A stretch of 64,000 nucleotides of DNA from Acidimicrobiia bacterium (GTDB lineage Bacteria > Actinomycetota > Acidimicrobiia > Spongiisociales > UBA5794), in contig JBPCTY010000060.1 of the NCBI GenBank assembly GCA_051011415.1, positions 10,781-74,780 of the forward strand, read 5' to 3'. Positions within the stretch are counted from its first letter, which is position 1, and each line of letters opens with the position of its first letter. Below, one piece after another: positions 3,869-30,861 of this stretch. Under the pieces are notes generated by a model. The model saw only the letters and a list, made by a program, of their open reading frames with translations. It made no database searches and had not been told where the DNA came from. The position numbers were made by a program, and so were the translations under genes.

Positions 3869-3912
3869 ATTGGCTCCGATCCGTATGGGTATCGGTCCTT
3901 CGGATGGGGAGG

Positions 3913-5253: not shown

Positions 5254-5255
5254 GT

Positions 5256-6594: not shown

Positions 6595-6597
6595 CGG

Positions 6598-8511: not shown

Positions 8512-8611
8512 GTTGCTCCTATGGATTGCGACTACATACTTCGTCAGCCTTGGGCTGTCGAAACGTGTTGCAATGGTACGCCGAACCTACGTCAAGTTCG
8601 CGAGTTGGCGG

Positions 8612-10437: not shown

Positions 10438-11453
10438 GCGGCGGGATCCTGGATCTCTTCGAGGGTCGGCAACGCTTCCGGGGACTCCCACGCCATGTCG
10501 AGGGATTCCCACGATGCCTTGTGCTCGACTCCACGAATGAAGGCAGCGCCGAGCTCGTACTGTTTCATCTTCATTTCCATGCCGATGAACCGCATCATGG
10601 CTGCGTTCTTCGGATCCTTGCGCCTGGCGGTGAGTACGTGTGACATGCGCCGCACATCGACGATCTCCCTATCGCCGATCCGATCCATAACGACATGGCC
10701 ATGCCCTTCAAGAAGTGACATCAGGGCCTGCACCCGGTCAAGGACGCCGCGCTGATCGTGGCTTGCCAAGAGTCCAAGGATTCCTGCATCACCAATCGGG
10801 TCTTCGTCGTTCTCCATTGCCGTCCGAACATCGGTTGCGATTCGGTTGAGTCGTCCTTGCTCCTTTGCGCCATCGCCGACAAGATCGTCGACCAGACTCA
10901 GGAAGTACTCACGCATCCAAGGCACTCCCTTGAACTGTGCCCTGTGCGCACACTCATGGAGGGCTACCCAGAATCGGAAATGGGATGGGCGAAACTCATG
11001 CTGACGTTCCATCGACAACACATTCGCACCAACGAAGAAGACCGAGTCTCCCACCTCATCTTCTCCCGATGGAAGCACGAGTTCGTATTGTCCGAGGACC
11101 CGCTTGGACAGGAATCCGAGCACAGCACCAAGTTCCGCTCCCATGACCCTTCCGGCGATACCAGGCGAACCTGCCTCGGATGCCTCTTCGTCGATTGCGT
11201 CCCTAAGCGGAGCAAGCAGCTCGGTAAACGCCCTGATGTTGGTGTCGACCCAGTCAGCTCTGCTGACGACTTGGACATCGGGTTCCCCTGGGAGTTCAAG
11301 ACCCGTCTCATCGGCAACCAGATCCGAAGCTCTCGCAACGTAACCGGGTGCGTCAAGAACGAACCGTCGCTCGTGGTAGGTGCCAGCAAGCGGATAGTCG
11401 CCGGCGAATCGGCTCGCAACGGTTGTGGCCGTGTCCCAATGGATCTTGCTCAT
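10413..11453 (-). CDS. Zinc-dependent metalloprotease (HExxH hydrolase, DUF2342/F420-associated-hydrolase-like)
   Basis: HECAH zinc-binding motif (VALHECAHRAQF). Conserved actinobacterial architecture, 346 aa. Confidence 0.7.
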   Translation of the reverse strand: MSKIHWDTATTVASRFAGDYPLAGTYHERRFVLDAPGYVARASDLVADETGLELPGEPDVQVVSRADWVDTNIRAFTELLAPLRDAIDEEASEAGSPGIAGRVMGAELGAVLGFLSKRVLGQYELVLPSGEDEVGDSVFFVGANVLSMERQHEFRPSHFRFWVALHECAHRAQFKGVPWMREYFLSLVDDLVGDGAKEQGRLNRIATDVRTAMENDEDPIGDAGILGLLASHDQRGVLDRVQALMSLLEGHGHVVMDRIGDREIVDVRRMSHVLTARRKDPKNAAMMRFIGMEMKMKQYELGAAFIRGVEHKASWESLDMAWESPEALPTLEEIQDPAAWLDRMAG

Positions 11454-11496
11454 GAAGCGAGCCTACGGGTCTGCCGGGATGGAGAGGACAGGCGCG

Positions 11497-11814
11497 CTAG
11501 TCCGCAACAACCTTGTACCGGTGCCGGATCGACCGGTTGTAGCCGATGATCAGACCGATGATCAGGATGATCGTGCCGATCACGATGGCTGGGTAGATGA
11601 ATCGTGCGGTCCACGGTTGCTCTTCCTCTTCGACCTCGACGGGAGGAATCACGATTGCCGGAGCTTCGCCGTCCGCGAAGGGGTCCGCAATCGTCGTCGT
11701 GGTGACCTGTTCCTCTTCGCCGCCGGTGTCCTCGGTGGCGAGCGCTGGTGCCATCATCGCGAATGTGGCAAGGACGATGGCGGCGAGTAGGCCGAGACGG
11801 TAGAACCGGTTCAT
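11497..11814 (-). CDS. Small secreted/C-terminally anchored protein. Signal peptide, then an acidic segment, then a C-terminal TM.
   Basis: An internal Met gives MNRFYRLGLLAAIVLATFAMMAPALA (signal-like), then an EEEQ-rich stretch, then IYPAIVIGTIILIIGLIIGY (TM). The upstream part of the listed 188-aa ORF is Arg/Pro/Gly-rich. Confidence 0.4.
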   Translation of the reverse strand: MNRFYRLGLLAAIVLATFAMMAPALATEDTGGEEEQVTTTTIADPFADGEAPAIVIPPVEVEEEEQPWTARFIYPAIVIGTIILIIGLIIGYNRSIRHRYKVVAD

Positions 11815-11942
11815 GAACCGTGAGAATAGACGGACGCCGGGACCTTCATGTTTCTCCGGGCCGCCAGGAAGGCCAACGCAGAGAGGCACCGGGTGTCCGG
11901 TGCCTCTGTGCTGTGCGAGATCTGGTTGCTTGGGAGTGGTTT

Positions 11943-12140
11943 CTAGGCCTCTGCCTTGACGATGCGGCCACGGAGACGTGGGTACTTCGTTGGGGCGTGT
12001 GCGTAGCACCATTCGCGCCTGTTGTACTGCGAGAGGGTTGTCGTACAGCCCTTCTGCTCGCATTCGCGCTTCTTCGCGTACGTCTTCGGTGCACGGGTGG
12101 CGCCGGTGAATTTCCGGCCTTTGAGAGCTGTGTCCTGCAT
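11943..12140 (-). CDS. Small basic C2-C-H zinc-ribbon-like protein, last gene of the sigH-rsrA operon
   Basis: 65 aa. Cys/His spacing CX4C...X13...CX2H (KRECEQKGC...WCYAH). Lys/Arg-rich. Lies 38 nt downstream of rsrA on the same strand. Confidence 0.4.
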   Translation of the reverse strand: MQDTALKGRKFTGATRAPKTYAKKRECEQKGCTTTLSQYNRREWCYAHAPTKYPRLRGRIVKAEA

Positions 12141-12178
12141 GGCGACCTCCGGTTATTGGGTGTCAGGGACCCCGGTCG

Positions 12179-12427
12179 TCAGCAGTCAGGGCCCCCGTTT
12201 TTACGTTCTTGTTGTATTAACGCTCGGAGTTGGTCGAAAAGTTCCTCAGGAGGAGCAGATTTTCCAGATTCGGCGATTTTTGTCTTCAGCGAACGCTCGA
12301 ACTCGTATGCATCGACACATCCGCCGCATCTCTTGAGATGCAGCGAAATACGTGCTCGGCGCGTCACAGTGAGCTCCTGATCGATGTACTGATATACGTA
12401 CTCGACTGCGTTTTCGCATCCGCTCAT
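12179..12427 (-). CDS. rsrA: Anti-sigma factor RsrA/RshA (zinc-associated anti-sigma, ZAS)
   Basis: H-x3-C-x2-C motif ([12 protein letters not shown]) plus an N-terminal Cys ([10 protein letters not shown]). A start at MSGCE gives an ATGA overlap with the sigH stop. Confidence 0.8.
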
Positions 12428-13020
12428 GGCGTTGGCTCCACTAGTCCGTGTTCGACTGCCAGGTTCCACAACTTCCTTTGGAGCGCTTTTCTTCCCCGAT
12501 GTAGCCGAGACATGACGGTTCCAATGGGAACATCAAGGATTTCGGCGATCTCTTTGTACGAGAATCCTTCGACATCCGCGTAGATCACCGGCAACCTGAA
12601 GTTCTCCGGCAGGCTTTCGATCGCCTCAACAATGTCCTCATCCACGAACATGTCGAGTGCTGTGCGTTCGGCACTCTCGCTTGCGCCAGATTGCTCGCCG
12701 AGCCTCCTGAACAAGTACATGTCCTGGAGCTCACCGAGCTCGACCTCACTCGGTCTTCGCTGCTTTTTGCGGTACTTGTTGATATAGGTGTTGGTGAGGA
12801 TGCGATACAGCCAAGCCTTGAGGTTCGTCCCGGCTTCGAACGAGTCGTAGGCCCGATAGGCCTTGAGGTAGGTCTCCTGAACGACATCCTCGGCGTCTGC
12901 AGGGTTGCGAGTCATGCGCAACGCAGCCGAGTACAGCTGCGGTGCGAATTCCATCGCATCTGCCTCAAAGGTTGCCTGGTCCGCCATGTCGCTGAGGGTA
13001 ACGACAGCACGGTGGTTCAC
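12424..13020 (-). CDS. sigH: ECF sigma factor SigH/SigR (thiol-oxidative stress)
   Basis: Near-identical to mycobacterial SigH blocks: [74 protein letters not shown]. Confidence 0.9.
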
Positions 13021-19470: not shown

Positions 19471-22035
19471 TCAGCCCTTCTTCGCCCGCTTCTCTGCAAG
19501 ACGCTCCGCAGCATGGTCGAGCGTTATGTTGTCGAGGTTCTCGGCCACACGGAACGACACGTTGGTTTCCCCATCAGTCATGTACAGACCGAATCGGCCA
19601 TCCTTCACCACGATCTCTTTGCCGGTCGCGGGATCCTTGCCGAGCTCCTTGAGGGGTGGCTTGGCACCGCGGCGCTTTCGTGGCTGCTCCAGCACCACAA
19701 CCGCTTGATCCATTGTGATGGTGAACAACTCTTCCTCGGTTTCGATGCTCCGAGATTCCGATCCCCACTTGATATACGGTCCGTAGCGTCCGTTGAGGGC
19801 CATGACTGGTTCGCCATCGGAGGGATGTGGGCCGACCTCGCGTGGCAGAGTCAACAGCTGCTGCGCTTGCTCGAACGTGACATCGGTGAGCGACATCGAC
19901 TTGAACAGCGATGCCGTAGGCGGCTTCTCCTTCGAATCGGGATCTCGTTCACCAAGCTGCACGTACGGACCGAAGCGGCCGGCCTTTGCGAATATCTCGA
20001 GTCCGGTTTCTGGGTCTATGCCGAGCACCCTGTCATCGCTCGGAGCGTCGAGGAGCGCCTCTGCCGTCTCGATCGTGAGCTCGTCCGGTGCCAGATCCGG
20101 AGGGATCGAAGCCTTGCGCTCACCGTGTTCGAGGTACGGGCCGTACTGCCCAGCTCGGGCAACGATTGGTTCGCCGTCCTCGCCCATTCCGATTGGGAAC
20201 GAGTTGACGGCCTTCGGGTCGATTCGCTCGAGCGCCTGCTCAGAAACCAGTTCGACCAATCCGGGATGGCCATTTCCTTTGTAGAACGCATCAAGGTACG
20301 GGACCATCTCCTGATCTCCACCCGCGATGCGGTCGAGGTCCGCTTCCATCCGTGCGGTGAACTCGTAGTCGACGTAGTCGGAGAAGTACTGCTCAAGAAG
20401 TCCGACGACAGAGAATGCTCGCCACGTTGGAATCAACGCGGAACCTTGCTTCCGTGCGTACTCGCGGTCGAGCACTGTCGCGATGATCGACGCATACGTC
20501 GACGGTCGCCCAATACCGAGTTCTTCAAGCCGCTTGATGAGGGATGCTTCGGTGTAACGAGCCGGTGGCTTGGTGTGATGCTCGGTCGGTTCGAGATCAG
20601 CGAGCCGTACCTGGTCCTTTTCCACCAACTCCGGCAGATGCGTTTCCTGGTCGTCGAGGGCGGCATCGGGATCGTCGCTCCCTTCGACGTATGCACGCAG
20701 AAATCCGGGGAACGTGATCGTTCTCCCCGACGCCTGGAACATGGCAGTGCGCTCATCGAGGGCATCGCCACTGACCTGGACGACAAGGCTCTCACCTTTG
20801 GCGTCCTGCATCTGCGAGGCCACTGTTCGCATCCAAATGAGTTCGTAGACGCGCGTCTCATCGGAAGTCGGTCCGAACTGCGTCGCAGCAGTGTCCATGT
20901 CCTGAAACTGCTCACCCGCCGGACGGATCGCCTCGTGGGCTTCTTGTGCACCCTTGGCTTGCTTTCCATAGAAGCGAGGCTCGTCCGGGAGGAACTTGGA
21001 CCCGTAGCGGTCAGACACAAGCGATCGTGCTGCGCTTAGCGCCGTTCCCGAGAGGTTCGTTGAATCGGTCCTCATGTACGTGATGAACCCAGCCTCGTAG
21101 AGGCGCTGAGCAGCGCTCATCGTTCGGCGTGCACCAAACCGGAGTTTTCTCCCCGCTTCCTGCTGAAGCGTGGATGTCCGGAATGGCGGATACGGCTTGC
21201 GCGTGTATGGCTTGCGTTCGACGCTCGTCACGGAGAACTCTGCACCGCTCAGACCTGTGGCAAGACCCACCGCATCATCTACAGACAGACGGACACGGTC
21301 CTTCTTGGTCAACTCGCCGGCGTCGTTGAAGTCTGAACCCTCAGCTACCCGAACCGCATCCACTTCCTTGAGACTTGCGGGAAAGTCGGTGCCGTCCGAG
21401 GAGAACACAGCCTTGAGTCCCGCATATCCGGCGCTGACATGCGCCATGCGCTCTCGCTCGCGTTCGACGAGAACCCGGGTGGCTGGCGACTGTACCCTTC
21501 CGGCAGACAGCCCTCTCTGCACTCGGCGCCACAGCACAGGGCTCACTTCGTAGCCGAACAATCGGTCCAAGATTCGCCTTGCTTCTTGTGCTTGCACGAG
21601 AGGGATATCCAGATCTCGGGGATTCTGGGCTGCCTCCTGGATGGCCTTTTCGGTGATCTCATGGAACACCATCCGTCTGACGGGGACCTTGGGCTTGAGA
21701 ACTTCGAGCAGATGCCAGGCAATGGCCTCACCCTCGCGGTCTTCATCCGTCGCGAGATAGAGCTCGTCCACTTCTTTGAGCTTCTTCTTGAGCAGCGTGA
21801 CCTGCTTCTTCGATTTGTCCGTGACGATGTAGACGGGTTCGTAGTCGTTGTCGACATCCACGCCGAACCTCGTCGTCTTCCAGAGATCCTTCTTTGCCGC
21901 GGGAAGGTCCGCCGCACGCGAAGGAATGTCGCGGATGTGTCCCACGGACGACTCCACGATGTAGTCACTTCCGAGATACCTGTTGATGGTCTTGGCCTTC
22001 GCAGGTGACTCAACGATGACAAGTTTCTTTGGCAT
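19471..22035 (-). CDS. topA: DNA topoisomerase I
   Basis: TOPRIM N-terminus MPKKLVIVESPAKAKTINRYLG, active-site Tyr region, C-terminal repeats. 854 aa. Confidence 0.95.
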   Translation of the reverse strand: MPKKLVIVESPAKAKTINRYLGSDYIVESSVGHIRDIPSRAADLPAAKKDLWKTTRFGVDVDNDYEPVYIVTDKSKKQVTLLKKKLKEVDELYLATDEDREGEAIAWHLLEVLKPKVPVRRMVFHEITEKAIQEAAQNPRDLDIPLVQAQEARRILDRLFGYEVSPVLWRRVQRGLSAGRVQSPATRVLVERERERMAHVSAGYAGLKAVFSSDGTDFPASLKEVDAVRVAEGSDFNDAGELTKKDRVRLSVDDAVGLATGLSGAEFSVTSVERKPYTRKPYPPFRTSTLQQEAGRKLRFGARRTMSAAQRLYEAGFITYMRTDSTNLSGTALSAARSLVSDRYGSKFLPDEPRFYGKQAKGAQEAHEAIRPAGEQFQDMDTAATQFGPTSDETRVYELIWMRTVASQMQDAKGESLVVQVSGDALDERTAMFQASGRTITFPGFLRAYVEGSDDPDAALDDQETHLPELVEKDQVRLADLEPTEHHTKPPARYTEASLIKRLEELGIGRPSTYASIIATVLDREYARKQGSALIPTWRAFSVVGLLEQYFSDYVDYEFTARMEADLDRIAGGDQEMVPYLDAFYKGNGHPGLVELVSEQALERIDPKAVNSFPIGMGEDGEPIVARAGQYGPYLEHGERKASIPPDLAPDELTIETAEALLDAPSDDRVLGIDPETGLEIFAKAGRFGPYVQLGERDPDSKEKPPTASLFKSMSLTDVTFEQAQQLLTLPREVGPHPSDGEPVMALNGRYGPYIKWGSESRSIETEEELFTITMDQAVVVLEQPRKRRGAKPPLKELGKDPATGKEIVVKDGRFGLYMTDGETNVSFRVAENLDNITLDHAAERLAEKRAKKG

Positions 22036-22127
22036 GAATTCCGATCATTCGGCGTCGACTCGTGTCAACGGCGTACAGGAATACGGCAACCTCAACGCAA
22101 TGTCAAGGGATCTAGCGGTGCAGGAAC

Positions 22128-23192
22128 CTAACGCAGATGTGCGTCGAACTCATCATGGAAGCGTTCAACAACCCGATCCCACGTGAATTCTGACTCTACA
22201 AATCTCCGACCCTCTCGGCCCATCTGGACCCCGAGCGCAGGGTCACCAAGCACAAGCTCAAGGCCCTCGACGATGTCGCCCACTGACGACACAACGTATC
22301 CGGTGACACCAGGCAGAACCGTTTCAGGCGATCCCCCCGAGTCACCTGCGAGGACAGGAAGACCCGATGCGGATGCCTCCAGATACACGAGTCCAAGCCC
22401 TTCGACTTCTAGCCCACCCCACCGCGACGAGGTCGGCATACAGAACACATCCATCTCCTGGTACAAGCCCGGAAGGGAGGACCAAGGAACATCGACCTCG
22501 AACCGAACGTCGAGACCGAGCTTGTCTGCCTGTCTTCTCAGCGCCCCCTCCGTTCTGCCTTTGCCAACCAGGAGCACCTCGACATCACGATCGAGCTCAG
22601 CCACAGCATCGAGCAGTCGCTGTTGCCCTTTGCGCGGCACAAAACGCGACACGCACCCGATGACCGGTCGACCCTTGGCAGATCTGTTCTCGGCGGGCAC
22701 GAACGTCTCCGTCTCAACCCCAGCTCCGAGAAACGCGACGGGCCTTCCCGAGAGACGTTCAACCTTGCTTGCAGTAAATCGGCTCACGGCGAAGCGAATA
22801 TCGGCGGCAGCAAGCATGCGTCCGGGCGTCTGACGAACCCCAGGCGCTGCACTGGGAAGCGTGACCTCGGCACCATGGCTCAGGACCGCAAAGGGGGCAC
22901 CCAGTGCTTCTCGCAGCGCGGGCCCCATCTTTGGCAGGGGGTGGGGGGCGCCGAAGAGGATCGCATCTGGCTGAAAACTCTGTGCGGCCGCGATCACATC
23001 TGCGGCGGTGTCCTTGGTGGGAAGCATGTATCCCCTGCTCCCCCTGACGACGCCTTCTTCAACGCCAGCGTCGTCGTTGTCCGGCCCATAGACCAGCACC
23101 TCGCCGTCAAACGCATCAACGAAGTTCTTCAGATACATCTGAATGCCACCGGGGGTTGGTGGATAGTCGTTTGTGACGAGGAGAAGCCGCAT
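22128..23192 (-). CDS. GT4-family glycosyltransferase (PimA/PimB/MgtA-like)
   Basis: N-terminal GT-B domain MRLLLVTNDYPPTPGGIQ. C-terminal nucleotide-sugar domain with EASASGLPVLAGDSGG and the E-x7-E region. The start is 3 nt from the upstream phosphatase stop. Confidence 0.8.
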   Translation of the reverse strand: MRLLLVTNDYPPTPGGIQMYLKNFVDAFDGEVLVYGPDNDDAGVEEGVVRGSRGYMLPTKDTAADVIAAAQSFQPDAILFGAPHPLPKMGPALREALGAPFAVLSHGAEVTLPSAAPGVRQTPGRMLAAADIRFAVSRFTASKVERLSGRPVAFLGAGVETETFVPAENRSAKGRPVIGCVSRFVPRKGQQRLLDAVAELDRDVEVLLVGKGRTEGALRRQADKLGLDVRFEVDVPWSSLPGLYQEMDVFCMPTSSRWGGLEVEGLGLVYLEASASGLPVLAGDSGGSPETVLPGVTGYVVSSVGDIVEGLELVLGDPALGVQMGREGRRFVESEFTWDRVVERFHDEFDAHLR

Positions 23193-23194
23193 TG

Positions 23195-24424
23195 TCAGTC
23201 GAGGTGGGGCGCAACGTTGTACGCCGCAACGACAGGTGCATGGTCGGTGAGCACGATCCTGCTCATCGACGTGTTCCGGGGAACAGGCAGCTTGTTCCTC
23301 TCTGGGAACTCGAGCCCAAGGACGGACGTGACATACGCCCTGATCACGGCTCCATGCGAGATGGCGCCTATCTCGTCACCGTTGCCATTCGAACCGATGT
23401 CGGCAACAGCAGCCCGCATACGAATGCCGGCTTCGGTGAACGACTCGCCCGTTGTCCCCCGGGGCACATCGACACCCTCGACGTACACCTTGTGGAACAA
23501 GCCTGGATCCCTCAGCTTCGCCTCATCGATTGTGAGGTCTTCCCATTCCCCGAACGACATCTCCACGAGTCCTTCATGGGCCACCGGATCCGGATTGCCG
23601 TTCCCACCGGTGAGAATCCGTGCTGTCTCCGTCGTTCTCCCAAGCGGCGACGTGAACACCGTGTCGAATGCCGGCATCTGTCCGGCTGCAGCCTCGGCTT
23701 GGGATCGACCGAGCTCTGTGAGATCGCTGTCGGACCGGCCCTGCCAGCGACCAAGCACGTTGCCTTCCGTTTGGCCATGCCGAACGAGAGTGACCCGAGG
23801 GCCCTCCGGCCCATAGTGGTCTGGCGCATCATCGAGATGCGACGCATCGTTGAAGGTCGAAAGCTGGAAGCCACCGGCATCATCGATTCGAAGCTTCGTG
23901 AGCGACGTGTTGAAGGGTGCAACGGCTGGCGCCATCGGACCATCTCGGTCAAGCACTCGATTGAGCGCACTCCAGATCACGCCACCGTGCGTGACAACGA
24001 TTGTCGTATCGCCGTCATCCATCGCATCGACTGTCGAATCCAATGTTTCGGCAATGCGACGGTTGAAGTCCGACAGCCGATCTCCTCCGCCGAGCAGAAT
24101 GTCCTCTCCCTTGAACAGCCCTTCGAGTTGTCCGGGAAACTTCGCTTCGATCTCCTCATGGGTGAGGCCGTCCCATCCGCCGACATTGAACTCGCGCCAC
24201 GACGTGTTTAGCTCTGGCTCCCCGACCGCAGCAGCGGTTCGAGCGGCGCGGTCGAGATCGCTCGAGATCAGCCTGGTGTGCCGAGAACCAGCAAAGCGCT
24301 TCCCGAGCCTGGCGACCTGGTCGATACCGACATCGGAGAGACCCGAGTCGAGGGTGCCTTGCCAACGACGTTCAGCATTGGCGTTGGATTCGCCATGGCG
24401 TATCAGTATGAGGGTGCGAGACAT
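23195..24424 (-). CDS. Tandem (duplicated) histidine phosphatase / phosphoglycerate-mutase-family protein
   Basis: Two complete PGM-like domains, each with a catalytic RHG motif (LIRHGESNAN at the N-terminus, LVRHGQTEGN at ~residue 215) and downstream His motifs (VVTHGGV and ISHGAV). Confidence 0.8.
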   Translation of the reverse strand: MSRTLILIRHGESNANAERRWQGTLDSGLSDVGIDQVARLGKRFAGSRHTRLISSDLDRAARTAAAVGEPELNTSWREFNVGGWDGLTHEEIEAKFPGQLEGLFKGEDILLGGGDRLSDFNRRIAETLDSTVDAMDDGDTTIVVTHGGVIWSALNRVLDRDGPMAPAVAPFNTSLTKLRIDDAGGFQLSTFNDASHLDDAPDHYGPEGPRVTLVRHGQTEGNVLGRWQGRSDSDLTELGRSQAEAAAGQMPAFDTVFTSPLGRTTETARILTGGNGNPDPVAHEGLVEMSFGEWEDLTIDEAKLRDPGLFHKVYVEGVDVPRGTTGESFTEAGIRMRAAVADIGSNGNGDEIGAISHGAVIRAYVTSVLGLEFPERNKLPVPRNTSMSRIVLTDHAPVVAAYNVAPHLD

Positions 24425-24458
24425 CGACTCTCCGAAGCGGTGTCCGTAGGCTAGGAGA

Positions 24459-24746
24459 ATGATCCTCCTTCAGATCGTCGCCCAGGAAACGAACCTGCCA
24501 ACCGGTGGAACTGGCCAAATCATCTTCTGGCTCATCGGGGCCGGGACAATCGCCGGTTTGTACTTCCTCATCGCACGAACGAGGAAGAAGTCGTACAACG
24601 AGTATTGGGACCGCCGCCGCACTGCAGAGCAGCAGAAACGCAACGATCCTGACATGGCGCACGAGTCAGCAGACGATGAACCCGACGAAGATCAGTCGAC
24701 TGACTCAAGTTCTCTCGATGGCGACATCGGCGATCCCGACATTTGA
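24459..24746 (+). CDS. Possible small membrane protein with an acidic C-terminal tail
   Basis: TM helix IIFWLIGAGTIAGLYFLIA followed by RTRKK (positive-inside), then a D/E-rich tail. High GC3. Sits in an otherwise empty intergenic gap between minus-strand genes. Confidence 0.35.
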   Translation: MILLQIVAQETNLPTGGTGQIIFWLIGAGTIAGLYFLIARTRKKSYNEYWDRRRTAEQQKRNDPDMAHESADDEPDEDQSTDSSSLDGDIGDPDI

Positions 24747-24771: not shown

Positions 24772-26223
24772 TCACTTCCGCCAGACTTCGCGGTTCATGA
24801 GGATCAGGATCGGAAGAATCTCAAGGCGACCGACGATCATGAGGAAGCCAAGCAGCAATTTGCCTGCCCATGGCACTCCGAGATAGTTCCCAGTCGGACC
24901 GACCTCACCGAGACCGGGACCAACGTTGCCGAGCGAAGATGCAACTGCTGACACCGTCGTCACCATGTCGAGATCCTGTCCGCTGAAGAACCCGATCAGC
25001 CCGAGCAGGAAGGTCCCCGTCATGAAGGCAAACATGTACAACAGGAAGAACGTCTGCACTGTCTCGACGACAAGATCCGGGACCGGCGTCTTCCCAATCC
25101 GGGTCACGAACACGCCCCTTGGATGGATAAGGCGCCGTACGTCCATCCGCGACGCTTCGTAGAGAATGTGCAAGCGGTCGGTCTTGATGGCGCCGGACGT
25201 GGAACCGGCCATTGCACCAACGAACATGAGCCCAACGATCATGATCTCAAGCGCTGGTATCCAGACCGCATAGTCGACCGTGCCGAATCCTGTGGTTGTG
25301 ATGATCGTGAGAGAGGTGAACAGTGCGTCTCTGATGGCATTCGCAACGCCTCCGCCCCATGTCCCCCACAGCATCAACAGGGCTGCCACAACAACGATCC
25401 CTGCATAGACACGCAGTTCGGCAGACTTGAAGTAGACGAGCCTGTCCCTGCGGACGAACTTGTAATGGAGTGCGAATGATGTTCCGGCAAGTGCCATGAA
25501 CACGATCACCACCCACTGCGAGTACGACGAGTAGGCACCGAGAGACCCAGCGTTTGTCGAGAAGCCACCGGTCGACATTGTTGTCAGCGAGTGGTTCACG
25601 GCCTCGAAGAACGACATGTCGCCGAACGCCAAGAAGATGACCTCTATCCCTGTGAGGATGAGATATGCATACCACAGCCGCTTTGCGGTCTCCCTGAACC
25701 GAGGGGTCAGCCGATCTGGCATCGGCCCGGGAGACTCGGCACGAGCGAGCTGCACCGCACCCATTCCCAACAACGGCAGAATCGCGACGGACAGCACGAT
25801 GATTCCCATGCCACCAATCCACTGCGTCAGCGACCTCCAGAACACAACACCTTGACTGAGTTGTCCTGGATCTGGTACCACTGAAGCGCCGGTCGTAGTA
25901 ATCCCTGCCGTCGCTTCGAAGATTGCGTCGACGACGTTGGTTATCGAACCGGTGAAGAGATAGGGCAATGCACTGAACAGCGAGATACCGATCCATGCCA
26001 GACCGACAGTTGCGAAACCTTCCCTCGTGCTCAGCTCCCCGGGTCGGTCGTAGATCCTCCAGAGGAGAAAGCCGATGATCGACGTCGTGGCGGCCGCAAG
26101 GAGCAGACCGGGTAGATCTGACCACTCCTGGTAGATGAGGCTGACGAGAACCGGGGCGAACATCGACAGCCCGATGGCCCCAATAACGGCTCCGACAACG
26201 TGGAGGAGGTGTCTCCAGGACAT
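24772..26223 (-). CDS. trkH: Trk/Ktr/HKT-family potassium transporter membrane subunit
   Basis: Repeated pore-loop signatures (TTTGAS, STGGFST, TTTGFGTVD), ~10 TM. 483 aa. Confidence 0.85.
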   Translation of the reverse strand: MSWRHLLHVVGAVIGAIGLSMFAPVLVSLIYQEWSDLPGLLLAAATTSIIGFLLWRIYDRPGELSTREGFATVGLAWIGISLFSALPYLFTGSITNVVDAIFEATAGITTTGASVVPDPGQLSQGVVFWRSLTQWIGGMGIIVLSVAILPLLGMGAVQLARAESPGPMPDRLTPRFRETAKRLWYAYLILTGIEVIFLAFGDMSFFEAVNHSLTTMSTGGFSTNAGSLGAYSSYSQWVVIVFMALAGTSFALHYKFVRRDRLVYFKSAELRVYAGIVVVAALLMLWGTWGGGVANAIRDALFTSLTIITTTGFGTVDYAVWIPALEIMIVGLMFVGAMAGSTSGAIKTDRLHILYEASRMDVRRLIHPRGVFVTRIGKTPVPDLVVETVQTFFLLYMFAFMTGTFLLGLIGFFSGQDLDMVTTVSAVASSLGNVGPGLGEVGPTGNYLGVPWAGKLLLGFLMIVGRLEILPILILMNREVWRK

Positions 26224-26227
26224 CGCG

Positions 26228-27556
26228 TCAGCCGGAGAGCTTCTCTGCGGTGGCGATGGCTTCGGGAAGCGCGATCACGATGAGATGATCGCCAGCCTCG
26301 ATGGTGGTGTTCCCACGTGGGACAAACGAGTCCGACCCTCGTTGCACCCCTCCAATGATGAGCGAGTGAGGCAATCTCAAGTCGGCGAGCGTCTTCCCGA
26401 TCGCCGGGCTCTTCTTCCCGACCTCAAGCTCAATCGCCTCAGCATCGGAGTCGGAGAAGGTGACGACAGAGTGGATGGTTCCGCGGCGCACGAACCGCAA
26501 TATCTCGTTTGCTGCCGACAACCGAGCACTGACGGTTGCATCGATACCGATGCCTGACAGCAGCCCGACCAGATCGGTGTTGGTGAATCTGGCGATGACC
26601 TCGCGTGCACCGAGCGACTTGGCCGCCAGGGCGCTCAATACGTTCTCACTGTCCCACCCCGTGAGCGACATCACCGTGTCTGCTGAGTCAACTCCTTCGG
26701 ACTTCAGGACCTTCACATCGGACGGCTCCCCACACACGGTGATCACCGACGGAAGGGTCTCCGCGATATAGCGGCATCTGTCCATATCGCTATCGATCAG
26801 CGTCGTGTGGATGCCTCGTTCGGAAAGCAGTCGGGCGGTGAGCTTTGCAAGCCTTGTACCTCCAAGCACGATGACCTTCTCTGCTGGTTCGCTCGAGAGC
26901 CCAAGCCACTGGTAGGCGTCCTCCGTGCTGTCTCGCTTGGCCATCATGAGGACATGGTCGCCCGGTTCGAGTGCGGTTGAACCTCTTGCGATGATGGTCT
27001 CGCCGTGGCGGATGACGGCAACAACAAGCCAATCCCAGCCAACAACTGTTTGCCGTAGGTCCATCAGTGTCTTTCCGACGAACGGGGCATTCTGCTCGAC
27101 ATGAGCACCGAGAAGCACGAGCTCGCCGTCTGCGAATTCGATCTTTTCCGAAATGTCGCCGCTCGAAGCGAGCTGGTACAGCTCTCTCGCTGCTGCCTCG
27201 CCCGGATCGATCACAAGATCGACACCAAGCGCCTCGACTTCTGCCTTGAGCTGGTCGTCTTCTACGCGTGCAACCTTCCGAGGGATCTTGAGCTTGTTGC
27301 CAGCAGAGCACGCAAGCACATTCACCGCATCTGATGAGCTGACCGCAATGAGAAGATCGGAGCCAGCAAGGCCCGCCTTCTTCAGTGTTTCAGCCGATGC
27401 ACCGTTGCCATTGATGACGAGGCAGTCGATCTCTGTTTGGGCAACCGCGGCGCGCACCGGATCGGACTCGATGACCACCACGTCCTGACCTTCGTACGAC
27501 AGCTTCTCCGCAAGATACGAGCCCACTGCACCTGCGCCGATGATGACGATTCGCAT
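26228..27556 (-). CDS. trkA: Trk system potassium uptake protein TrkA (tandem RCK/NAD-binding domains)
   Basis: Two Rossmann GxGxxG motifs (IVIIGAGAVGSYLA and VIVLGGTRLAKLTA), each followed by an RCK_C domain. Confidence 0.9.
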   Translation of the reverse strand: MRIVIIGAGAVGSYLAEKLSYEGQDVVVIESDPVRAAVAQTEIDCLVINGNGASAETLKKAGLAGSDLLIAVSSSDAVNVLACSAGNKLKIPRKVARVEDDQLKAEVEALGVDLVIDPGEAAARELYQLASSGDISEKIEFADGELVLLGAHVEQNAPFVGKTLMDLRQTVVGWDWLVVAVIRHGETIIARGSTALEPGDHVLMMAKRDSTEDAYQWLGLSSEPAEKVIVLGGTRLAKLTARLLSERGIHTTLIDSDMDRCRYIAETLPSVITVCGEPSDVKVLKSEGVDSADTVMSLTGWDSENVLSALAAKSLGAREVIARFTNTDLVGLLSGIGIDATVSARLSAANEILRFVRRGTIHSVVTFSDSDAEAIELEVGKKSPAIGKTLADLRLPHSLIIGGVQRGSDSFVPRGNTTIEAGDHLIVIALPEAIATAEKLSG

Positions 27557-27671: not shown

Positions 27672-29753
27672 CTAGAGCAGGCCACCAAAGCTTGCGAACG
27701 CCGACGCAAAGATCAGCGACACAATCGTCATGACCTTGATCACGATGTTCATCGCCGGACCAGACGTGTCCTTGAATGGGTCACCGATGGTGTCACCCAC
27801 GACAGCGGCTTTGTGTGCATCCGAGCCCTTGCCACCGAAGGCACCGGACTCAATGAACTTCTTGGCGTTGTCCCATGCTCCACCTGCATTTGCCATGTAG
27901 ATGGCGAGGAGGAAGCCGGAGACCAGCGCACCAGCAAGCAGCCCGCCAAGCATGTCGACGGAGATGAATCCGACGATAAGCGGTAGGGCGACAGCCATCG
28001 CACCCGGAATGATCATCTCCCGCAGCGACGCCTTGGTCGAGATATCGACACACTTTGCATATTCCGGTACCACGCCCGGTTTACCCTCACGCAACCCTGG
28101 GATTTCTCTGAACTGGCGCCTGACTTCTTCGATCATCTGGAACGCTGCTCGCCCAACCGCCTGAATGGTCATGGCAGCGAACAGGTAGGGGAACATGCCT
28201 CCGAGGAACAGACCAACCGACACCTTGATGTCGAGAATGCCGAATCCGCTCACGCCTACCGCTTGCGCAAAGGTGAAGAACAAGGCCAGCGCAGTCACTG
28301 CAGCGGATGCAATTGCAAAGCCCTTTGCCACAGCGGCTGTGGTGTTGCCGAGTGCATCGAGCTGGTCTGTTGCTTCTCTCACCTCTGGGGGAAGCTCCGC
28401 CATCTCTGCGATGCCACCGGCGTTGTCAGCAATCGGACCATACGCGTCGACAGATACGGTGATACCTAGTGTTGCGAGAACACCGATTGCCGCAATCGCA
28501 ACACCGTAGATACCGCCGTCGTCCACGGCCAGGTCACCAGCCCAGTACGCAGCGCCCATGCCGAGTGCAACGACGATGACCGAATAGGCAGCCGAACGCT
28601 TGCCCTCTGCGATACCAGCGAGGGTCACCGTCGCAGGACCGGTTTCCGCCTGACGCGCGATCTCCTTGACGGTCTTGTAGTGATCAGAGGTGTACCACTC
28701 GGAAATCTTGCCAACGATGAGGCCGATCGAAAGACCAACGATCACCGCAATGAAGAATCCCCACGAGTTCTTCACGCCGGCAACGTCGTTGAACATCACC
28801 GGCGTCAGAATCGCCACGCCGACAACGGTCAACCCGGCTGCCGCCCACGTACCAGTGTGGAGCGCTGCCGCGAGGTTGTCGCCCCGTGGCCGAACGAGGA
28901 ACGAGCCAATGATCGATGCGAGCATGCCGATCGAGGCGATCATGAGCGGGTAGAAGATGGTCTGTGGAAGGAAGTCGTTGCCGCTGAACACAATCGCTGC
29001 AAAAGCGATCGGTGCGATCAGCGAACCGACGTAGGACTCGAAGAGGTCTGCACCCATTCCTGCGACGTCACCGACGTTGTCACCAACGTTGTCAGCGATC
29101 GTGGCCGGGTTGCGGGGATCGTCTTCTGGGATACCCGCCTCGACCTTGCCGACCAGATCAGCGCCGACGTCCGCGGCCTTGGTGTAGATACCACCACCGA
29201 CACGTGCGAAGAGGGCGATCGACGATCCACCGAGACCGATCGCGGTGACAATCTGAACCCAGTTGTCATCTTCGAGCACCTCGCCAAAGAAGTACACACC
29301 GAGCGCAAAACCGAGAAGACCGAGGCCTGCAACGGTGAAGCCCATGACTGCACCGCCGCGGAACGCAACGGGAAGCGCCTTTGCCGTTCCACCCTGACGT
29401 GCGGCTTCCGCCGTTCGTGCGTTTGCGGCTGTCGCAATCCGCATGCCGATAAAGCCGGCGGACGCGGACAGAATCGCACCGAATACGTATGCAACTGCGC
29501 CCCACGGTCGACCCCAATCGAGGAAGACAAGGATGAGCACTGCCATGATCGCGACGAATCCGGCGATCGCCAGATACTCGCGACGCATGAAGGCCATTGA
29601 CCCTTCGCGGATGGCGGACATGAGTTCGACCATCCGGTCGTTTCCGGGCGATGCTGCAACAACCTGTCTGCCGTAGAAGGCAGCGAGGATGAGCGCAGCG
29701 ATACCCATGACAATGGCTACGTAGAGCCACACATCGGCGTTCACTAAGACCAC
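27672..29753 (-). CDS. hppA: Membrane-bound proton-translocating pyrophosphatase (H+-PPase)
   Basis: Signature GDNVGDNVGDVAGMGADLFESYVGSLIA and multiple TM helices. 693 aa. Confidence 0.92.
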   Translation of the reverse strand: MVLVNADVWLYVAIVMGIAALILAAFYGRQVVAASPGNDRMVELMSAIREGSMAFMRREYLAIAGFVAIMAVLILVFLDWGRPWGAVAYVFGAILSASAGFIGMRIATAANARTAEAARQGGTAKALPVAFRGGAVMGFTVAGLGLLGFALGVYFFGEVLEDDNWVQIVTAIGLGGSSIALFARVGGGIYTKAADVGADLVGKVEAGIPEDDPRNPATIADNVGDNVGDVAGMGADLFESYVGSLIAPIAFAAIVFSGNDFLPQTIFYPLMIASIGMLASIIGSFLVRPRGDNLAAALHTGTWAAAGLTVVGVAILTPVMFNDVAGVKNSWGFFIAVIVGLSIGLIVGKISEWYTSDHYKTVKEIARQAETGPATVTLAGIAEGKRSAAYSVIVVALGMGAAYWAGDLAVDDGGIYGVAIAAIGVLATLGITVSVDAYGPIADNAGGIAEMAELPPEVREATDQLDALGNTTAAVAKGFAIASAAVTALALFFTFAQAVGVSGFGILDIKVSVGLFLGGMFPYLFAAMTIQAVGRAAFQMIEEVRRQFREIPGLREGKPGVVPEYAKCVDISTKASLREMIIPGAMAVALPLIVGFISVDMLGGLLAGALVSGFLLAIYMANAGGAWDNAKKFIESGAFGGKGSDAHKAAVVGDTIGDPFKDTSGPAMNIVIKVMTIVSLIFASAFASFGGLL

Positions 29754-29850: not shown

Positions 29851-30861
29851 GTGCCGTCCATGCCATGGACACAAAGCCTTCCAAACGGATACGTCGGCTC
29901 GGTCGGCGCACCGACCGACCTCAGCGAGCTTCAAGCCCTCGTCGCGACCGTCGACACGATGCTCGAGGGAACCAGCACAATGACAGTGGACACGCTGGAA
30001 ACCTCCTTCGGAGAGCCCGACTTCGATCGCACGCGACATGTCGCGTTGGTCCACAGCAACGATGGAAAGCTCGTCGGCGCAGCTTGGTTCAACCTCATCC
30101 AACCATTTGTCGCATCGTTCGCCCCCGGATATGTGCACCCTGACTATGAGGGCCTTGGGATCGGTGGCTCACTCACCGAATGGCTAATCGCCGCAGCGCA
30201 CGCAAACGAGAGCAAGGCACCAGACGACACACGCGTGACGCTGGCTGTTGGGATCCATGACTCGAACGAGCGGGCCAAGCGGCTCTTCAGCGCACGAGGG
30301 TTTGAGGTCGAGCGCTACTTCCTCGAGATGGAGATCGCACTCGGTCAGCCCATCTCCATCCCGCCGCTTGCGGAAGGTCTCACCCTTCGAACGATGTCGC
30401 CAGATGAAGATGTCGACGCTCTCTCCGCAGCAGTGACCGGGTCCTTCAAGGACCACTACGGGTTCACCGAGCGGCCGCCAGAGGTGAGTAACGCCAGGTG
30501 GCGTCAGTGGCGAACAAGCGAGGTCTGGGATGACGATCTGGTGTGGCTGGCTATGGCAGACGACCGAATCGTTGGAGTCAATGTATGCCTTCGCACCCAC
30601 GGTGCCCGTGAGGACCAGGGCTACGTTGCATCGCTTGGCGTTTTGCCCGATTGGCGGGGCAAAGGACTGGCCAGGCACTTGTTGACGACGAGTTTCGCCG
30701 AGTATCAATCAAGGGGAATGGACTCTGTGGCGCTTCATGTCGACGCCGACAGCCTCACCGGGGCGACCCGTCTCTATGAGGGAGTTGGAATGCATGAGAC
30801 TCAGCGCACGGTCGACTTTCAGCTCGAGATCCGGGCAGGTCGCGACATCACCGTTCGATGA
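29851..30861 (+). CDS. Tandem-GNAT N-acetyltransferase, MshD-like (possible mycothiol synthase)
   Basis: Two GNAT domains with acetyl-CoA (R/Q)xxGxG/A motifs (YEGLGIGGSL and WRGKGLARHL). Overall ~320-aa two-domain architecture like MshD. The 3' end overlaps the downstream aminotransferase by 4 nt. Confidence 0.6.
   Translation: MPSMPWTQSLPNGYVGSVGAPTDLSELQALVATVDTMLEGTSTMTVDTLETSFGEPDFDRTRHVALVHSNDGKLVGAAWFNLIQPFVASFAPGYVHPDYEGLGIGGSLTEWLIAAAHANESKAPDDTRVTLAVGIHDSNERAKRLFSARGFEVERYFLEMEIALGQPISIPPLAEGLTLRTMSPDEDVDALSAAVTGSFKDHYGFTERPPEVSNARWRQWRTSEVWDDDLVWLAMADDRIVGVNVCLRTHGAREDQGYVASLGVLPDWRGKGLARHLLTTSFAEYQSRGMDSVALHVDADSLTGATRLYEGVGMHETQRTVDFQLEIRAGRDITVR

What the first reader, a model, noticed from the sequence alone, without database searches (positions are those of the whole stretch)
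22128..24424. Tandem-duplicated histidine phosphatase translationally coupled to a GT4 glycosyltransferase, upstream of topA
**What the sequence shows**
- The 409-aa protein contains two full PGM-like histidine-phosphatase domains, each with its own catalytic RHG motif (LIRHGESNAN and LVRHGQTEGN).
- Its stop is 3 nt from the start of a PimA/PimB-like GT4 glycosyltransferase, so the two are likely translationally coupled in an operon.

**Established knowledge**
- A synthase-plus-phosphatase pair is the logic of compatible-solute or glycolipid-precursor pathways. Examples are glucosyl- and mannosyl-3-phosphoglycerate synthase/phosphatase (GpgS/GpgP, MpgS/MpgP) and MshA with its still-unidentified phosphatase MshA2.

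**Inference**
- This pair may make and dephosphorylate a glycosyl-phosphate intermediate.
- The internal duplication of the phosphatase (possibly one active and one regulatory/pseudo domain) is uncommon.
Basis: partly seen in the sequence, partly recalled or inferred. Interest (0 to 1): 0.55.

Follow-up and report, generated by a model that had tools for sequence, protein, structure and literature searches.

The report
Double histidine phosphatase with PimB′ mannosyltransferase
In an uncultured Acidimicrobiia bacterium, a phosphatase made of two fused, apparently active copies of the same enzyme is co-translated with the cell-envelope mannosyltransferase PimB′; the pair is conserved across this bacterial class, but what the phosphatase acts on is still unknown.

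Summary
On the minus strand, 24424..23195 encodes a 409-aa protein with two His_Phos_1 domains. Both domains keep the full catalytic set, and this set is unchanged in all 28 relatives checked.

Two nucleotides after its stop codon starts a 354-aa GT4 gene (23192..22128), and topA follows. The phosphatase–GT4 junction is tight, -4 to +10 nt, in 23 of the 28 Acidimicrobiia loci examined. topA has its own conserved promoter-like motif, so the pair looks like a discrete two-gene operon.

The GT4 is a PimB′ orthologue:
- It is 38% identical to C. glutamicum PimB′.
- Every residue shown by mutagenesis to matter in PimB′ is conserved.
- PimB′ is its best structural match.

Its expected acceptor is therefore the membrane lipid PIM1, not a soluble phospho-acceptor. 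It does not match MshA, sucrose-phosphate synthase or GpgS-type synthases.

The phosphatase reaches no curated substrate-specific family. Partners also vary:
- One clade couples it to a methyltransferase.
- One lineage separates it from the GT4.
- Myxococcota relatives, whose second domain is decayed, lie in unrelated contexts.

The phosphatase could be the missing actinobacterial phosphatidylinositol-phosphate phosphatase, but this is speculative (about 0.15). Interest is modest.

The parts
23195..24424 (-). Gene for the 409-aa tandem histidine phosphatase (called HP2x here), including its stop codon TGA at 23197..23195
   Evidence: ORF. Pfam His_Phos_1 matches twice, E 1.5e-88. The protein is 100% identical to an NCBI Acidimicrobiia MAG protein. 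AF2 model has pLDDT 93.5 and pTM 0.92.
23816..24424 (-). Domain 1 of HP2x (residues 1-203), with catalytic residues R9 H10 N16 R59 E78 H146
   Evidence: Aligned residue by residue to PhoE 1H2E, E 2e-22. The catalytic columns are invariant.
23198..23815 (-). Domain 2 of HP2x (residues 204-409), with catalytic residues R215 H216 N222 R263 E288 H357
   Evidence: Matches the E. histolytica and H. thermophilus His-type phosphoserine phosphatases (5ZKK, 4IJ5) and Rv3214. The catalytic columns are invariant. It is 27% identical to domain 1.
24428..24433 (-). Shine-Dalgarno-like GGAGAG, 3 nt upstream of the HP2x ATG
   Evidence: Read directly from the sequence. No comparable purine run precedes the GT4 ATG.
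23193..23194 (-). Two-nucleotide spacer (ca) between the HP2x stop codon and the GT4 start codon
   Evidence: The equivalent distance is -4 to +10 nt in 23 related loci.
22128..23192 (-). Gene for the 354-aa GT4 glycosyltransferase, a PimB′ orthologue
   Evidence: Best PDB sequence hit is C. glutamicum PimB′ 3OKA: E 2e-57, 198 bits, full length. Identity is 38%. N8 D9 I17 Q18 H106 R183 R187 K188 E264 E272 correspond to Cg N12 D13 I21 Q22 H118 R206 R210 K211 E290 E298. Foldseek best match is 3oka_A, E 8e-27, TM 0.87.
22078..22106 (-). Conserved promoter-like motif for topA in the GT4-topA spacer: TTGACA (22106..22101), 17 nt, TATTCC (22083..22078)
   Evidence: Alignment of this spacer from 15 loci shows a conserved TTGACA and a TAnnnC/T box at fixed spacing. 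The consensus scanner did not call it, because the second hexamer ends in C.
19471..22035 (-). topA (854 aa), the next transcription unit downstream. It is context, not part of the operon.
   Evidence: ORF. Toprim / Topoisom_bac Pfam families hit the orthologues. Syntenic in 24 of 25 loci that carry the GT4.

Best explanation
This is a two-gene operon that is conserved in the class Acidimicrobiia.

**Gene 1: the phosphatase.** It encodes a soluble, acidic branch-1 histidine phosphatase that arose by an old internal duplication.
- The two halves are about 27-31% identical to each other.
- They are under equal constraint.
- Each keeps a complete active site.

By inference, each half works by the standard phosphohistidine mechanism:
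- His10 / His216 attack the phosphomonoester.
- Arg9, Arg59 and His146 (Arg215, Arg263 and His357 in the second half) hold the phosphate.
- Glu78 / Glu288 protonate the leaving group.

The fusion probably replaces the homodimer that many relatives form. That would give one polypeptide with two active sites.

**Gene 2: the glycosyltransferase.** It is the PimB′ orthologue. By inference it transfers mannose from GDP-mannose to O-6 of the inositol of (acyl-)PIM1 at the cytoplasmic face of the membrane, making PIM2. Cultured members of this class contain this lipid class.

**How the two genes are linked.**
- The GT4 has no ribosome-binding site of its own, and its start lies within a few bases of the phosphatase stop. 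It is therefore probably translated by re-initiation.
- topA, just downstream, has its own promoter.

**Not a synthase-plus-phosphatase couple.** The glycosyltransferase product carries no phosphomonoester to remove.

**What the phosphatase acts on.** The substrate is not established. My committed ranking is below; the second item is a subset of the first.
- About 0.3: a step in the same inositol-lipid pathway.
- About 0.15 of that 0.3: specifically PIP to PI, the only orphan phosphatase step in that pathway.
- About 0.4: a housekeeping small-molecule phosphatase held in the operon by the translational coupling.

The confidence given (0.6) is for the parts above the substrate ranking: a discrete bicistron, two working active sites, a PimB′ orthologue, and no shared glycosyl-phosphate intermediate.
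For: **Domain content and catalytic residues**
- The duplication is old and both halves are equally constrained. Domain 1 versus domain 1 averages 51% identity, domain 2 versus domain 2 averages 52%, and domain 1 versus domain 2 averages 31%.
- The two-domain AF2 model is confident, with pLDDT 93.5 and pTM 0.92.
- Its nearest structures are PhoE, GpgP Rv2419c, PspA, CobC and the riboflavin-pathway HFP. Each covers only one domain.

**PimB′ assignment**
- JGI names dozens of orthologues phosphatidylinositol alpha-1,6-mannosyltransferase.
- PI and PIM are reported in cultured Acidimicrobiia (PMC12263773).

**Operon structure**
- The junction is 2 nt here and -4 to +10 nt in 23 loci.
- A Shine-Dalgarno-like sequence precedes only gene 1.
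- A conserved topA promoter-like motif lies in the next spacer.
- The junction survives where neighbouring junctions were broken: the TrkAH position varies, an MFS gene is inserted, and a glyoxalase gene is inserted between GT4 and topA in L088.

**An orphan phosphatase step exists in the pathway**
- See PMC6506517 and bioRxiv 10.64898/2026.07.15.738315.
Against: **No activity was measured, and membership of specific families fails**
- Neither domain reaches any curated substrate-specific model. The best is CobC, at 99 and 102 bits against a cutoff of 162.9.

**The link to PimB′ rests on gene order within one class, where the whole block is syntenic**
- The conserved order is PPase, phosphatase, GT4, topA, tmk, holB, PlsC.
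- The functionally unrelated GT4-topA adjacency is kept just as well.

**The phosphatase does not always travel with the GT4**
- In L016 and L022 it is coupled to a generic SAM methyltransferase instead. In L023 that methyltransferase lies downstream on the opposite strand, and there is no GT4 nearby.
- In L086 two kinase genes separate it from the GT4.
- Myxococcota relatives sit in unrelated contexts.

**Other gaps**
- No other PI or PIM genes lie in the 64-kb window.
- The protein is acidic (pI 4.9) and I saw no obvious membrane-binding segment in the sequence or the AF2 model; no formal prediction was run.
- PimB′ was told apart from its paralogue MgtA only indirectly, because no MgtA sequence was available.
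Confidence: 0.6

Rival explanations
1. The phosphatase is a housekeeping small-molecule phosphatase with no role in PIM synthesis. Candidates are a PhoE/GpmB-type sugar-phosphate phosphatase, a PspA-type phosphoserine phosphatase, or a riboflavin or cobalamin pathway phosphatase. The operon is a frozen accident: once the GT4 came to depend on upstream translation, the junction could not easily be broken.
For: - The nearest characterised relatives are all soluble-metabolite phosphatases.
- The unrelated neighbour topA is retained just as faithfully.
- The partner gene differs in one clade, and the pair is split in L086.
- Myxococcota relatives lie in unrelated contexts.
Against: - Tight coupling is maintained down to 36% identity while other junctions in the block were rearranged.
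- No curated family cutoff is reached for any of these specific functions.
Confidence: 0.4
2. The phosphatase is the missing phosphatidylinositol-phosphate (PIP) phosphatase of the actinobacterial PI pathway, or it acts on a mannosylated PIP. It would supply PI or PIM1 to the co-translated PimB′.
For: - PIP to PI is the only known phosphatase step in the PI/PIM pathway.
- Its enzyme is unidentified in Actinobacteria. It was still described as 'long-sought' in 2026, with only a non-biochemical candidate, EphE.
- Bacteroides uses an unrelated PgpA-like enzyme, so non-orthologous solutions exist.
- The phosphatase is operonic with a PIM enzyme.
Against: - The family is confined to part of one class, whereas the PI pathway occurs throughout Actinobacteria.
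- I saw no obvious membrane-interaction feature, and the protein is acidic.
- I know of no branch-1 histidine phosphatase that acts on a lipid (my own knowledge).
- The operon partner is not always PimB′.
Confidence: 0.15
3. The GT4 glycosylates a soluble phosphorylated acceptor such as inositol-phosphate or 3-phosphoglycerate, and the phosphatase removes the phosphate. The logic would be that of MshA/MshA2 or GpgS/GpgP, giving a compatible solute or a thiol precursor.
For: - The genes are in an operon.
- GpgP itself is a branch-1 histidine phosphatase and is among the nearest structures.
- PimB′-type inositol and phosphate contacts (D9, R187) could in principle bind a soluble inositol phosphate. 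This is inference.
Against: - The GT4 scores far below the cutoffs for MshA (63 versus 462 bits) and sucrose-phosphate synthase (29 versus 576 bits).
- It resembles lipid-acting PimB′ over its whole length, including the acceptor-binding N-terminal domain.
- GpgS and MpgS belong to other GT families (my own knowledge).
Confidence: 0.08
4. The protein is a protein phosphatase of the PGAM5, Sts or SixA type. It would regulate envelope synthesis, possibly by opposing Ser/Thr kinases.
For: - Weak SixA similarity, 24 bits.
- In L086 two Ser/Thr kinase genes lie between the phosphatase gene and the GT4 gene.
Against: - This is a single anecdotal context.
- The closest relatives by sequence and by fold are metabolite phosphatases.
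- The SixA score is far below its cutoff of 74.5 bits.
Confidence: 0.05

Closest known systems
C. glutamicum / M. tuberculosis PimB′ (NCgl2106, Rv2188c; PDB 3OKA/3OKP), the GDP-mannose-dependent PIM2 synthase
   Same: - GT4 family with a GT-B fold.
- 38% identity over the full length.
- Every residue shown critical by mutagenesis is conserved: Asn12, Asp13, Ile21, Gln22, His118, Arg206, Arg210, Lys211, Glu290, plus ribose-binding Glu298.
- It is the best match by both sequence and structure.
   Different: - About 25 residues shorter.
- It sits in a different genomic setting, downstream of a histidine phosphatase and upstream of topA. To my knowledge the mycobacterial and corynebacterial genes have no phosphatase neighbour.
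- Activity has not been tested.
PhoE (YhfR) of Geobacillus stearothermophilus, a broad-specificity branch-1 histidine phosphatase (PDB 1H2E)
   Same: - Best sequence and fold match to domain 1 (E 2e-22; Foldseek 1.9e-15, 31% identity).
- Same catalytic residues and same cap-region pattern.
   Different: PhoE is a single 207-aa domain. Here two such domains are fused, and each is only about 30% identical to PhoE.
Mycobacterial glucosyl-3-phosphoglycerate phosphatase GpgP (Rv2419c; PDB 4PZ9, 6S2Q)
   Same: - Branch-1 histidine phosphatase from Actinobacteria.
- It works downstream of a glycosyltransferase in a synthase/phosphatase pathway.
- It is 27-28% identical and among the top structural matches.
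   Different: - It is a single-domain protein. That it forms a homodimer, and that its partner synthase GpgS belongs to another GT family, is from my own knowledge.
- No curated GpgP model was available to test membership.
Hydrogenobacter thermophilus PspA/PspB histidine-type phosphoserine phosphatase (PDB 4IJ5)
   Same: - Similar fold and about 25% identity.
- From my own knowledge, it occurs as a PspA homodimer or as a PspA-PspB heterodimer with one inactive subunit. This parallels the two-active-domain form seen here and the one-active-plus-remnant form seen in Myxococcota.
   Different: - Its subunits are separate polypeptides.
- The NCBIfam PspA model gives 70 and 77 bits per domain against a cutoff of 350.
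MshA plus the unidentified MshA2 phosphatase (mycothiol pathway)
   Same: A GT4 enzyme whose acceptor contains inositol phosphate, followed by an orphan phosphatase step.
   Different: - The GT4 here scores 63 bits against the MshA cutoff of 462.5.
- It scores 47-52 bits against MshA structures, versus 198 bits for PimB′.

Membership tests
Histidine phosphatase superfamily, branch 1 (Pfam PF00300) | Match to the family profile above the curated cutoff | tested here: met
   296 bits against a cutoff of 21.7, in two stretches.
Histidine phosphatase superfamily, branch 1 (Pfam PF00300) | Catalytic core in each domain: the RH(G/A) nucleophile His, two further phosphate-binding residues (Arg and His), and a Glu proton donor | tested here: met
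   R9 H10 R59 E78 H146 and R215 H216 R263 E288 H357 align to the PhoE catalytic positions. They are invariant in the family.
Histidine phosphatase superfamily, branch 1 (Pfam PF00300) | The alpha/beta fold of the PGM-like phosphatases | tested here: met
   The AF2 model has pLDDT 93.5. Foldseek to 1H2E, 4QIH and 4IJ6 gives target TM scores of 0.85-0.89, each over one domain.
Histidine phosphatase superfamily, branch 1 (Pfam PF00300) | Phosphomonoesterase activity through a phosphohistidine intermediate | not testable with these tools
   Needs an enzyme assay.
Alpha-ribazole phosphatase CobC (TIGR03162) | A single domain scoring above the equivalog cutoff of 162.9 bits | tested here: not met
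   The whole protein scores 197 bits only because two domains add up. Alone, the domains score 99.4 and 101.9 bits.
PimB′ (phosphatidylinositol monomannoside alpha-1,6-mannosyltransferase) | Full-length similarity to characterised PimB′ that clearly exceeds similarity to other GT4 enzymes | tested here: met
   198 bits to 3OKA against 52 bits or less for SPS, MshA and PimA. BLASTP gives 38% identity, E 1e-64. Foldseek gives 8e-27 against 1e-20 for the next match. MgtA (Rv0557) could not be compared.
PimB′ (phosphatidylinositol monomannoside alpha-1,6-mannosyltransferase) | Residues shown critical by mutagenesis, including acceptor-orienting Asp13 (Tyr in PimA), His118, Arg206, Arg210, Lys211 and Glu290 | tested here: met
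   The equivalents N8 D9 I17 Q18 H106 R183 R187 K188 E264 E272 are present. They are conserved in 25 orthologues, apart from H106Y in three and E264D in one.
PimB′ (phosphatidylinositol monomannoside alpha-1,6-mannosyltransferase) | The host makes PI and PIM and carries the rest of the pathway (ino1, pgsA1, pimA, patA) | tested here: inconclusive
   PI and PIM are reported in cultured Acidimicrobiia. No CDP-alcohol transferase motif and no second PIM gene were found in the 64-kb window. The rest of the genome is not available.
PimB′ (phosphatidylinositol monomannoside alpha-1,6-mannosyltransferase) | Transfer of mannose from GDP-mannose to (Ac)PIM1 | not testable with these tools
   Needs an assay or complementation.
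MshA (mycothiol D-inositol-3-phosphate glycosyltransferase, TIGR03449) | Score above the equivalog cutoff of 462.5 bits | tested here: not met
   62.9 bits, over the C-terminal domain only.
Sugar-phosphate synthase / phosphatase compatible-solute pairs (SPS/SPP, GpgS/GpgP, TreT and the like) | The glycosyltransferase belongs to one of the synthase families that take a phosphorylated soluble acceptor | tested here: not met
   The sucrose-phosphate synthase domain scores 28.7 against 576, and TreT 27.3 against 775. The GT is PimB′-like over both domains.

The most novel reading that the evidence does not exclude
The fused double histidine phosphatase is the long-sought phosphatidylinositol-phosphate phosphatase of an actinobacterial lineage, or it acts on a mannosylated PIP. 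It would be co-translated with PimB′ so that dephosphorylation of the inositol 3-position precedes mannosylation. This fits the PimB′ model, in which Asp13 needs free 3- and 4-hydroxyl groups on the inositol.
Probability: 0.15. Interest if true: 0.8.

Novelty: new variant of a known kind. Interest (0 to 1): 0.35.

Why it matters
- **Cell envelope.** The operon is genomic evidence that these uncultured, largely environmental Acidimicrobiia can make PIM-type glycolipids.
- **Enzyme architecture.** It adds an undescribed form to the histidine phosphatase superfamily: one chain with two intact active sites. A related lineage in Myxococcota lets the second site decay. This is a natural series for asking why these enzymes dimerise.
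- **Open questions.** The phosphatase is a cheap, testable candidate for orphan phosphatase steps in inositol metabolism, namely PIP to PI and MshA2. The evidence for this is only gene order.

Tried and rejected
**Family assignments tested and rejected**
- CobC assignment. The whole-protein score passes the cutoff only because two domains add up, and each domain alone fails.
- MshA, sucrose-phosphate synthase and TreT identity for the GT4. All score far below their cutoffs.

**Context searches**
- Independent contexts for the pairing outside Acidimicrobiia.
  - Single-domain relatives in Firmicutes and other phyla have no GT4 neighbour.
  - The closest out-of-class relatives are in Myxococcota. 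They have an intact domain 1 and a degenerate domain 2, and they lie among unrelated genes.
- Other PI or PIM genes in the window. A CDP-alcohol transferase motif search and inspection of the ORFs found none.
- The methyltransferase that replaces the GT4 in three loci. It is generic and matches no equivalog.

**Signal scans**
- The consensus promoter and terminator scan found nothing useful. The topA promoter-like motif emerged only from aligning the spacers.

**Literature**
- I found nothing on tandem bacterial histidine phosphatases or on a PimB-phosphatase link.

- A look-up of the window's own phosphatase in the contig index returned nothing.
Full report
**1. The observation**

The minus strand carries a run of genes in the same direction:
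- H+-pyrophosphatase, 29753..27672
- TrkA, 27556..26228
- TrkH, 26223..24772
- a 409-aa ORF, 24424..23195
- a 354-aa ORF, 23192..22128
- topA, 22035..19471
- tmk, holB, a PlsC-type acyltransferase and a YfcH-type epimerase

Pfam finds two His_Phos_1 stretches in the 409-aa protein (E 1.5e-88) and the GT4 domain set in the 354-aa protein. The junction reads gacTGAcaATG, so the spacer is 2 nt. Both proteins are identical to proteins of an NCBI 'Acidimicrobiia bacterium' MAG.

**2. The phosphatase (called HP2x here)**

*Both halves look active.*
- A residue-by-residue alignment to PhoE (1H2E) places R9, H10, N16, R59, E78 and H146 on that enzyme's catalytic positions.
- The second half carries R215, H216, N222, R263, E288 and H357.
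- All twelve columns are invariant in 27 homologues at 43-64% identity.
- They are also invariant in the 28 orthologues I extracted from genomic loci, down to 36% identity. A frameshifted assembly lacks the N-terminus.

*The duplication is old.*
- Domain 1 and domain 2 are 27% identical in this protein and average 31% across the family.
- Domain 1 against domain 1 averages 51%, and domain 2 against domain 2 averages 52%.
- The duplication therefore predates the family's radiation, and both halves are under similar constraint.

*Structure.*
- AlphaFold gives a confident two-domain model (pLDDT 93.5, pTM 0.92). This implies a fixed arrangement of the two domains.
- I read this as an intramolecular version of the dimers that relatives form.

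*Nearest relatives.*
- The nearest solved structures are PhoE, GpgP Rv2419c, the His-type phosphoserine phosphatases, CobC and a riboflavin-pathway phosphatase. Each covers only one domain.
- No curated NCBIfam model is reached by either domain alone. CobC gives 99 and 102 bits against a cutoff of 162.9. The apparent pass is the sum of two domains.
- The substrate therefore cannot be read from homology.
- The protein is acidic (pI 4.9), and I saw no obvious hydrophobic segment; no formal membrane-segment prediction was run.

**3. The glycosyltransferase**

*Sequence.*
- Its best solved relative is C. glutamicum PimB′ (3OKA): E 2e-57, 198 bits, full length.
- The next hits, sucrose-phosphate synthase, MshA and PimA, score 52 bits or less.
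- BLASTP gives 38% identity.

*Functional residues.*
- The PimB′ structure paper (PMC2988379) identifies Asp13 as the residue that orients the inositol 3- and 4-hydroxyls. It is strictly Asp in PimB′ and Tyr in PimA.
- It also shows that Asn12, Ile21, Gln22, His118, Arg206, Arg210, Lys211 and Glu290 are needed for activity.
- The equivalents here are N8, D9, I17, Q18, H106, R183, R187, K188, E264 and E272.
- They are all present and are conserved in 25 orthologues, with four single-residue exceptions.

*Structure and annotation.*
- An AlphaFold model (pLDDT 85.9) matches 3OKA best: E 8e-27, TM 0.87, 37% identity. The next match, GlgM, scores 1e-20.
- JGI labels many orthologues phosphatidylinositol alpha-1,6-mannosyltransferase.
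- Cultured Acidimicrobiia of the Iamiaceae are reported to contain PI and PIM (PMC12263773).

I therefore file the GT4 as a PimB′ orthologue. One caveat remains: I could not compare it with the paralogue MgtA.

**4. Gene neighbourhood**

*Distribution.*
- A scan of GTDB species representatives returned 24 two-domain loci. Twenty-three are labelled Acidimicrobiia or broader actinobacterial taxa, and one (L012) is labelled an Acidobacteria MAG.
- A search of 50%-identity representatives gives roughly 55 full-length two-domain clusters.

*Order of genes.*
- Mapping the window's proteins onto these loci shows the order PPase, HP2x, GT4, topA, tmk, holB, PlsC in 21 of 24.
- Four further contigs reached from either gene were also examined.

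*Spacing.*
- The HP2x stop to GT4 start distance is -4 to +10 nt in 23 of the 24 cases where the genes are adjacent.
- HP2x has a GGAGAG sequence 3 nt before its ATG. The GT4 has nothing comparable.
- The GT4-topA spacer is usually 79 nt. It holds a conserved TTGACA, 17 nt, TAnnnC/T motif.
- So topA looks independently transcribed, and HP2x-GT4 looks like a discrete bicistron with re-initiation at the junction.

*How robust the junction is.*
- The junction survives rearrangements that hit its neighbours:
  - TrkAH lies either between PPase and HP2x or upstream of PPase.
  - An MFS gene is inserted after topA.
  - In L088 a glyoxalase gene is inserted between GT4 and topA.
- The pairing is not universal:
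  - In L016 and L022, HP2x is followed and overlapped by a roughly 200-aa generic SAM methyltransferase instead. L023 has the methyltransferase downstream on the opposite strand. None of the three has a GT4 nearby.
  - In L086 two opposite-strand Ser/Thr kinase genes separate the pair.
- The GT4-topA adjacency, which has no functional rationale, is conserved about as well. Gene order in this block is therefore weak evidence of shared function.

**5. Relatives outside the class**

- The next tier of homologues consists of 310-350-aa proteins. They have an intact domain 1 and a short remnant of domain 2.
- The remnant keeps the core strands (VxLV, VALxA, LVDYGV) but has lost the RHG motif, the Arg, the Glu and the cap region.
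- Source names place these proteins in Myxococcota, in Sandaracinaceae and Polyangiales.
- Two long contigs show them among unrelated genes, with no GT4 or inositol genes.
- The tandem architecture is thus wider than the class. The second domain can decay, and the family as such is not tied to PimB′.

**6. What it most likely does**

*Shown*
- Two intact active sites.
- PimB′-type residues in the GT4.
- A conserved, tightly coupled two-gene unit.

*Inferred*
- Catalysis through a phosphohistidine intermediate in each half.
- PIM2 synthesis by the GT4.
- Translation of the GT4 by re-initiation.

- It proposed a synthase making a glycosyl-phosphate that the phosphatase then cleaves.
- It does not fit, because the PimB′ product carries no phosphomonoester.
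- The GT4 also fails every test for the synthase families that use phosphorylated soluble acceptors.

*A possible pathway link*
- If the phosphatase does serve the same pathway, the only known orphan step is PIP to PI.
- The enzyme for that step was 'yet-unidentified' in 2019 (PMC6506517).
- In a 2026 preprint it was still 'long-sought', with EphE proposed but without biochemistry.
- Bacteroides uses a PgpA-like enzyme (PMC9246714).
- I give the specific PIP-phosphatase reading about 0.15.
- I give any role in inositol-lipid metabolism about 0.3.
- I give an unrelated housekeeping role, held in place by the translational coupling, about 0.4.

**7. Novelty and score**

- The GT4 is a new member of a known kind.
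- The phosphatase is a new architectural variant of a well-known superfamily. I found no description of it in the literature searched, and no solved structure covers both domains.
- A specialist would find it mildly interesting rather than surprising. The exciting reading rests on gene order alone.
- Interest: 0.35.

Noticed in passing
window 24459..24746 (+): A 95-aa ORF is transcribed divergently from the phosphatase gene. Only 34 nt separate the two start codons. It has one hydrophobic stretch that could span the membrane (IIFWLIGAGTIAGLYFLIA) and an acidic tail, and it has no Pfam match. It is conserved at the same position and orientation in L001, L002, L004, L005 and L009 (45-56% identity). 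Small genes are also called there in L085 and L087.
   Followed up: partly
window 22078..22106 (-); same spacer in L001-L020, L085, L086: The GT4-topA spacer has a conserved promoter-like motif: TTGACA, 17 nt, TAnnnC/T. In L013, L019 and L020 the GT4 stop codon TGA is itself part of the TTGACA box.
   Followed up: partly
window 29851..30861 (+): A 336-aa protein with two GNAT domains lies divergent from the pyrophosphatase gene. It aligns end to end with the mycothiol synthase MshD model but scores only 68 bits against a cutoff of 163. It shares the MshD architecture but is not an MshD equivalog.
   Followed up: partly
P0304, P0305, P0309, P0318, P0319, P0324, P0348; loci L081, L083: Myxococcota (Sandaracinaceae, Polyangiales) carry 310-350-aa relatives. 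These have an intact first phosphatase domain and a shortened second domain that has lost its catalytic residues. They lie in unrelated gene contexts.
   Followed up: yes
L016 7224..7823, L022 5558..6145, L023 7345..7974 (opposite strand): In a divergent Acidimicrobiia clade the tandem phosphatase is followed by a roughly 200-aa Methyltransf_11-type SAM methyltransferase instead of the GT4. The methyltransferase overlaps the phosphatase gene in L016 and starts 1 nt after it in L022. No homologue of it exists in the window or in the other loci.
   Followed up: partly
L086 9308..11653: Two Ser/Thr protein kinase genes on the opposite strand are inserted between the tandem phosphatase gene and the PimB′-like gene.
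   Followed up: no
L024 4093..10971: The pyrophosphatase, phosphatase and topA genes are each split into several tblastn segments in different frames. The contig is 1.13 Mb. This looks like indel errors in the assembly rather than pseudogenes.
   Followed up: no
window 24772..27556 compared with L010, L014, L015, L085: The TrkA-TrkH potassium-uptake pair lies between the pyrophosphatase and the phosphatase gene in this window and its close relatives. It lies upstream of the pyrophosphatase in more distant loci. The older order appears to be PPase directly followed by the phosphatase gene.
   Followed up: partly
window 1..13000 (-): By eye only, from N-terminal sequences, the left part of the window looks like the conserved actinobacterial block panC, folK/folB/folP, ftsH, hpt, tilS. 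This block neighbours topA and holB in mycobacteria as well. I did not test it with profile searches.
   Followed up: no
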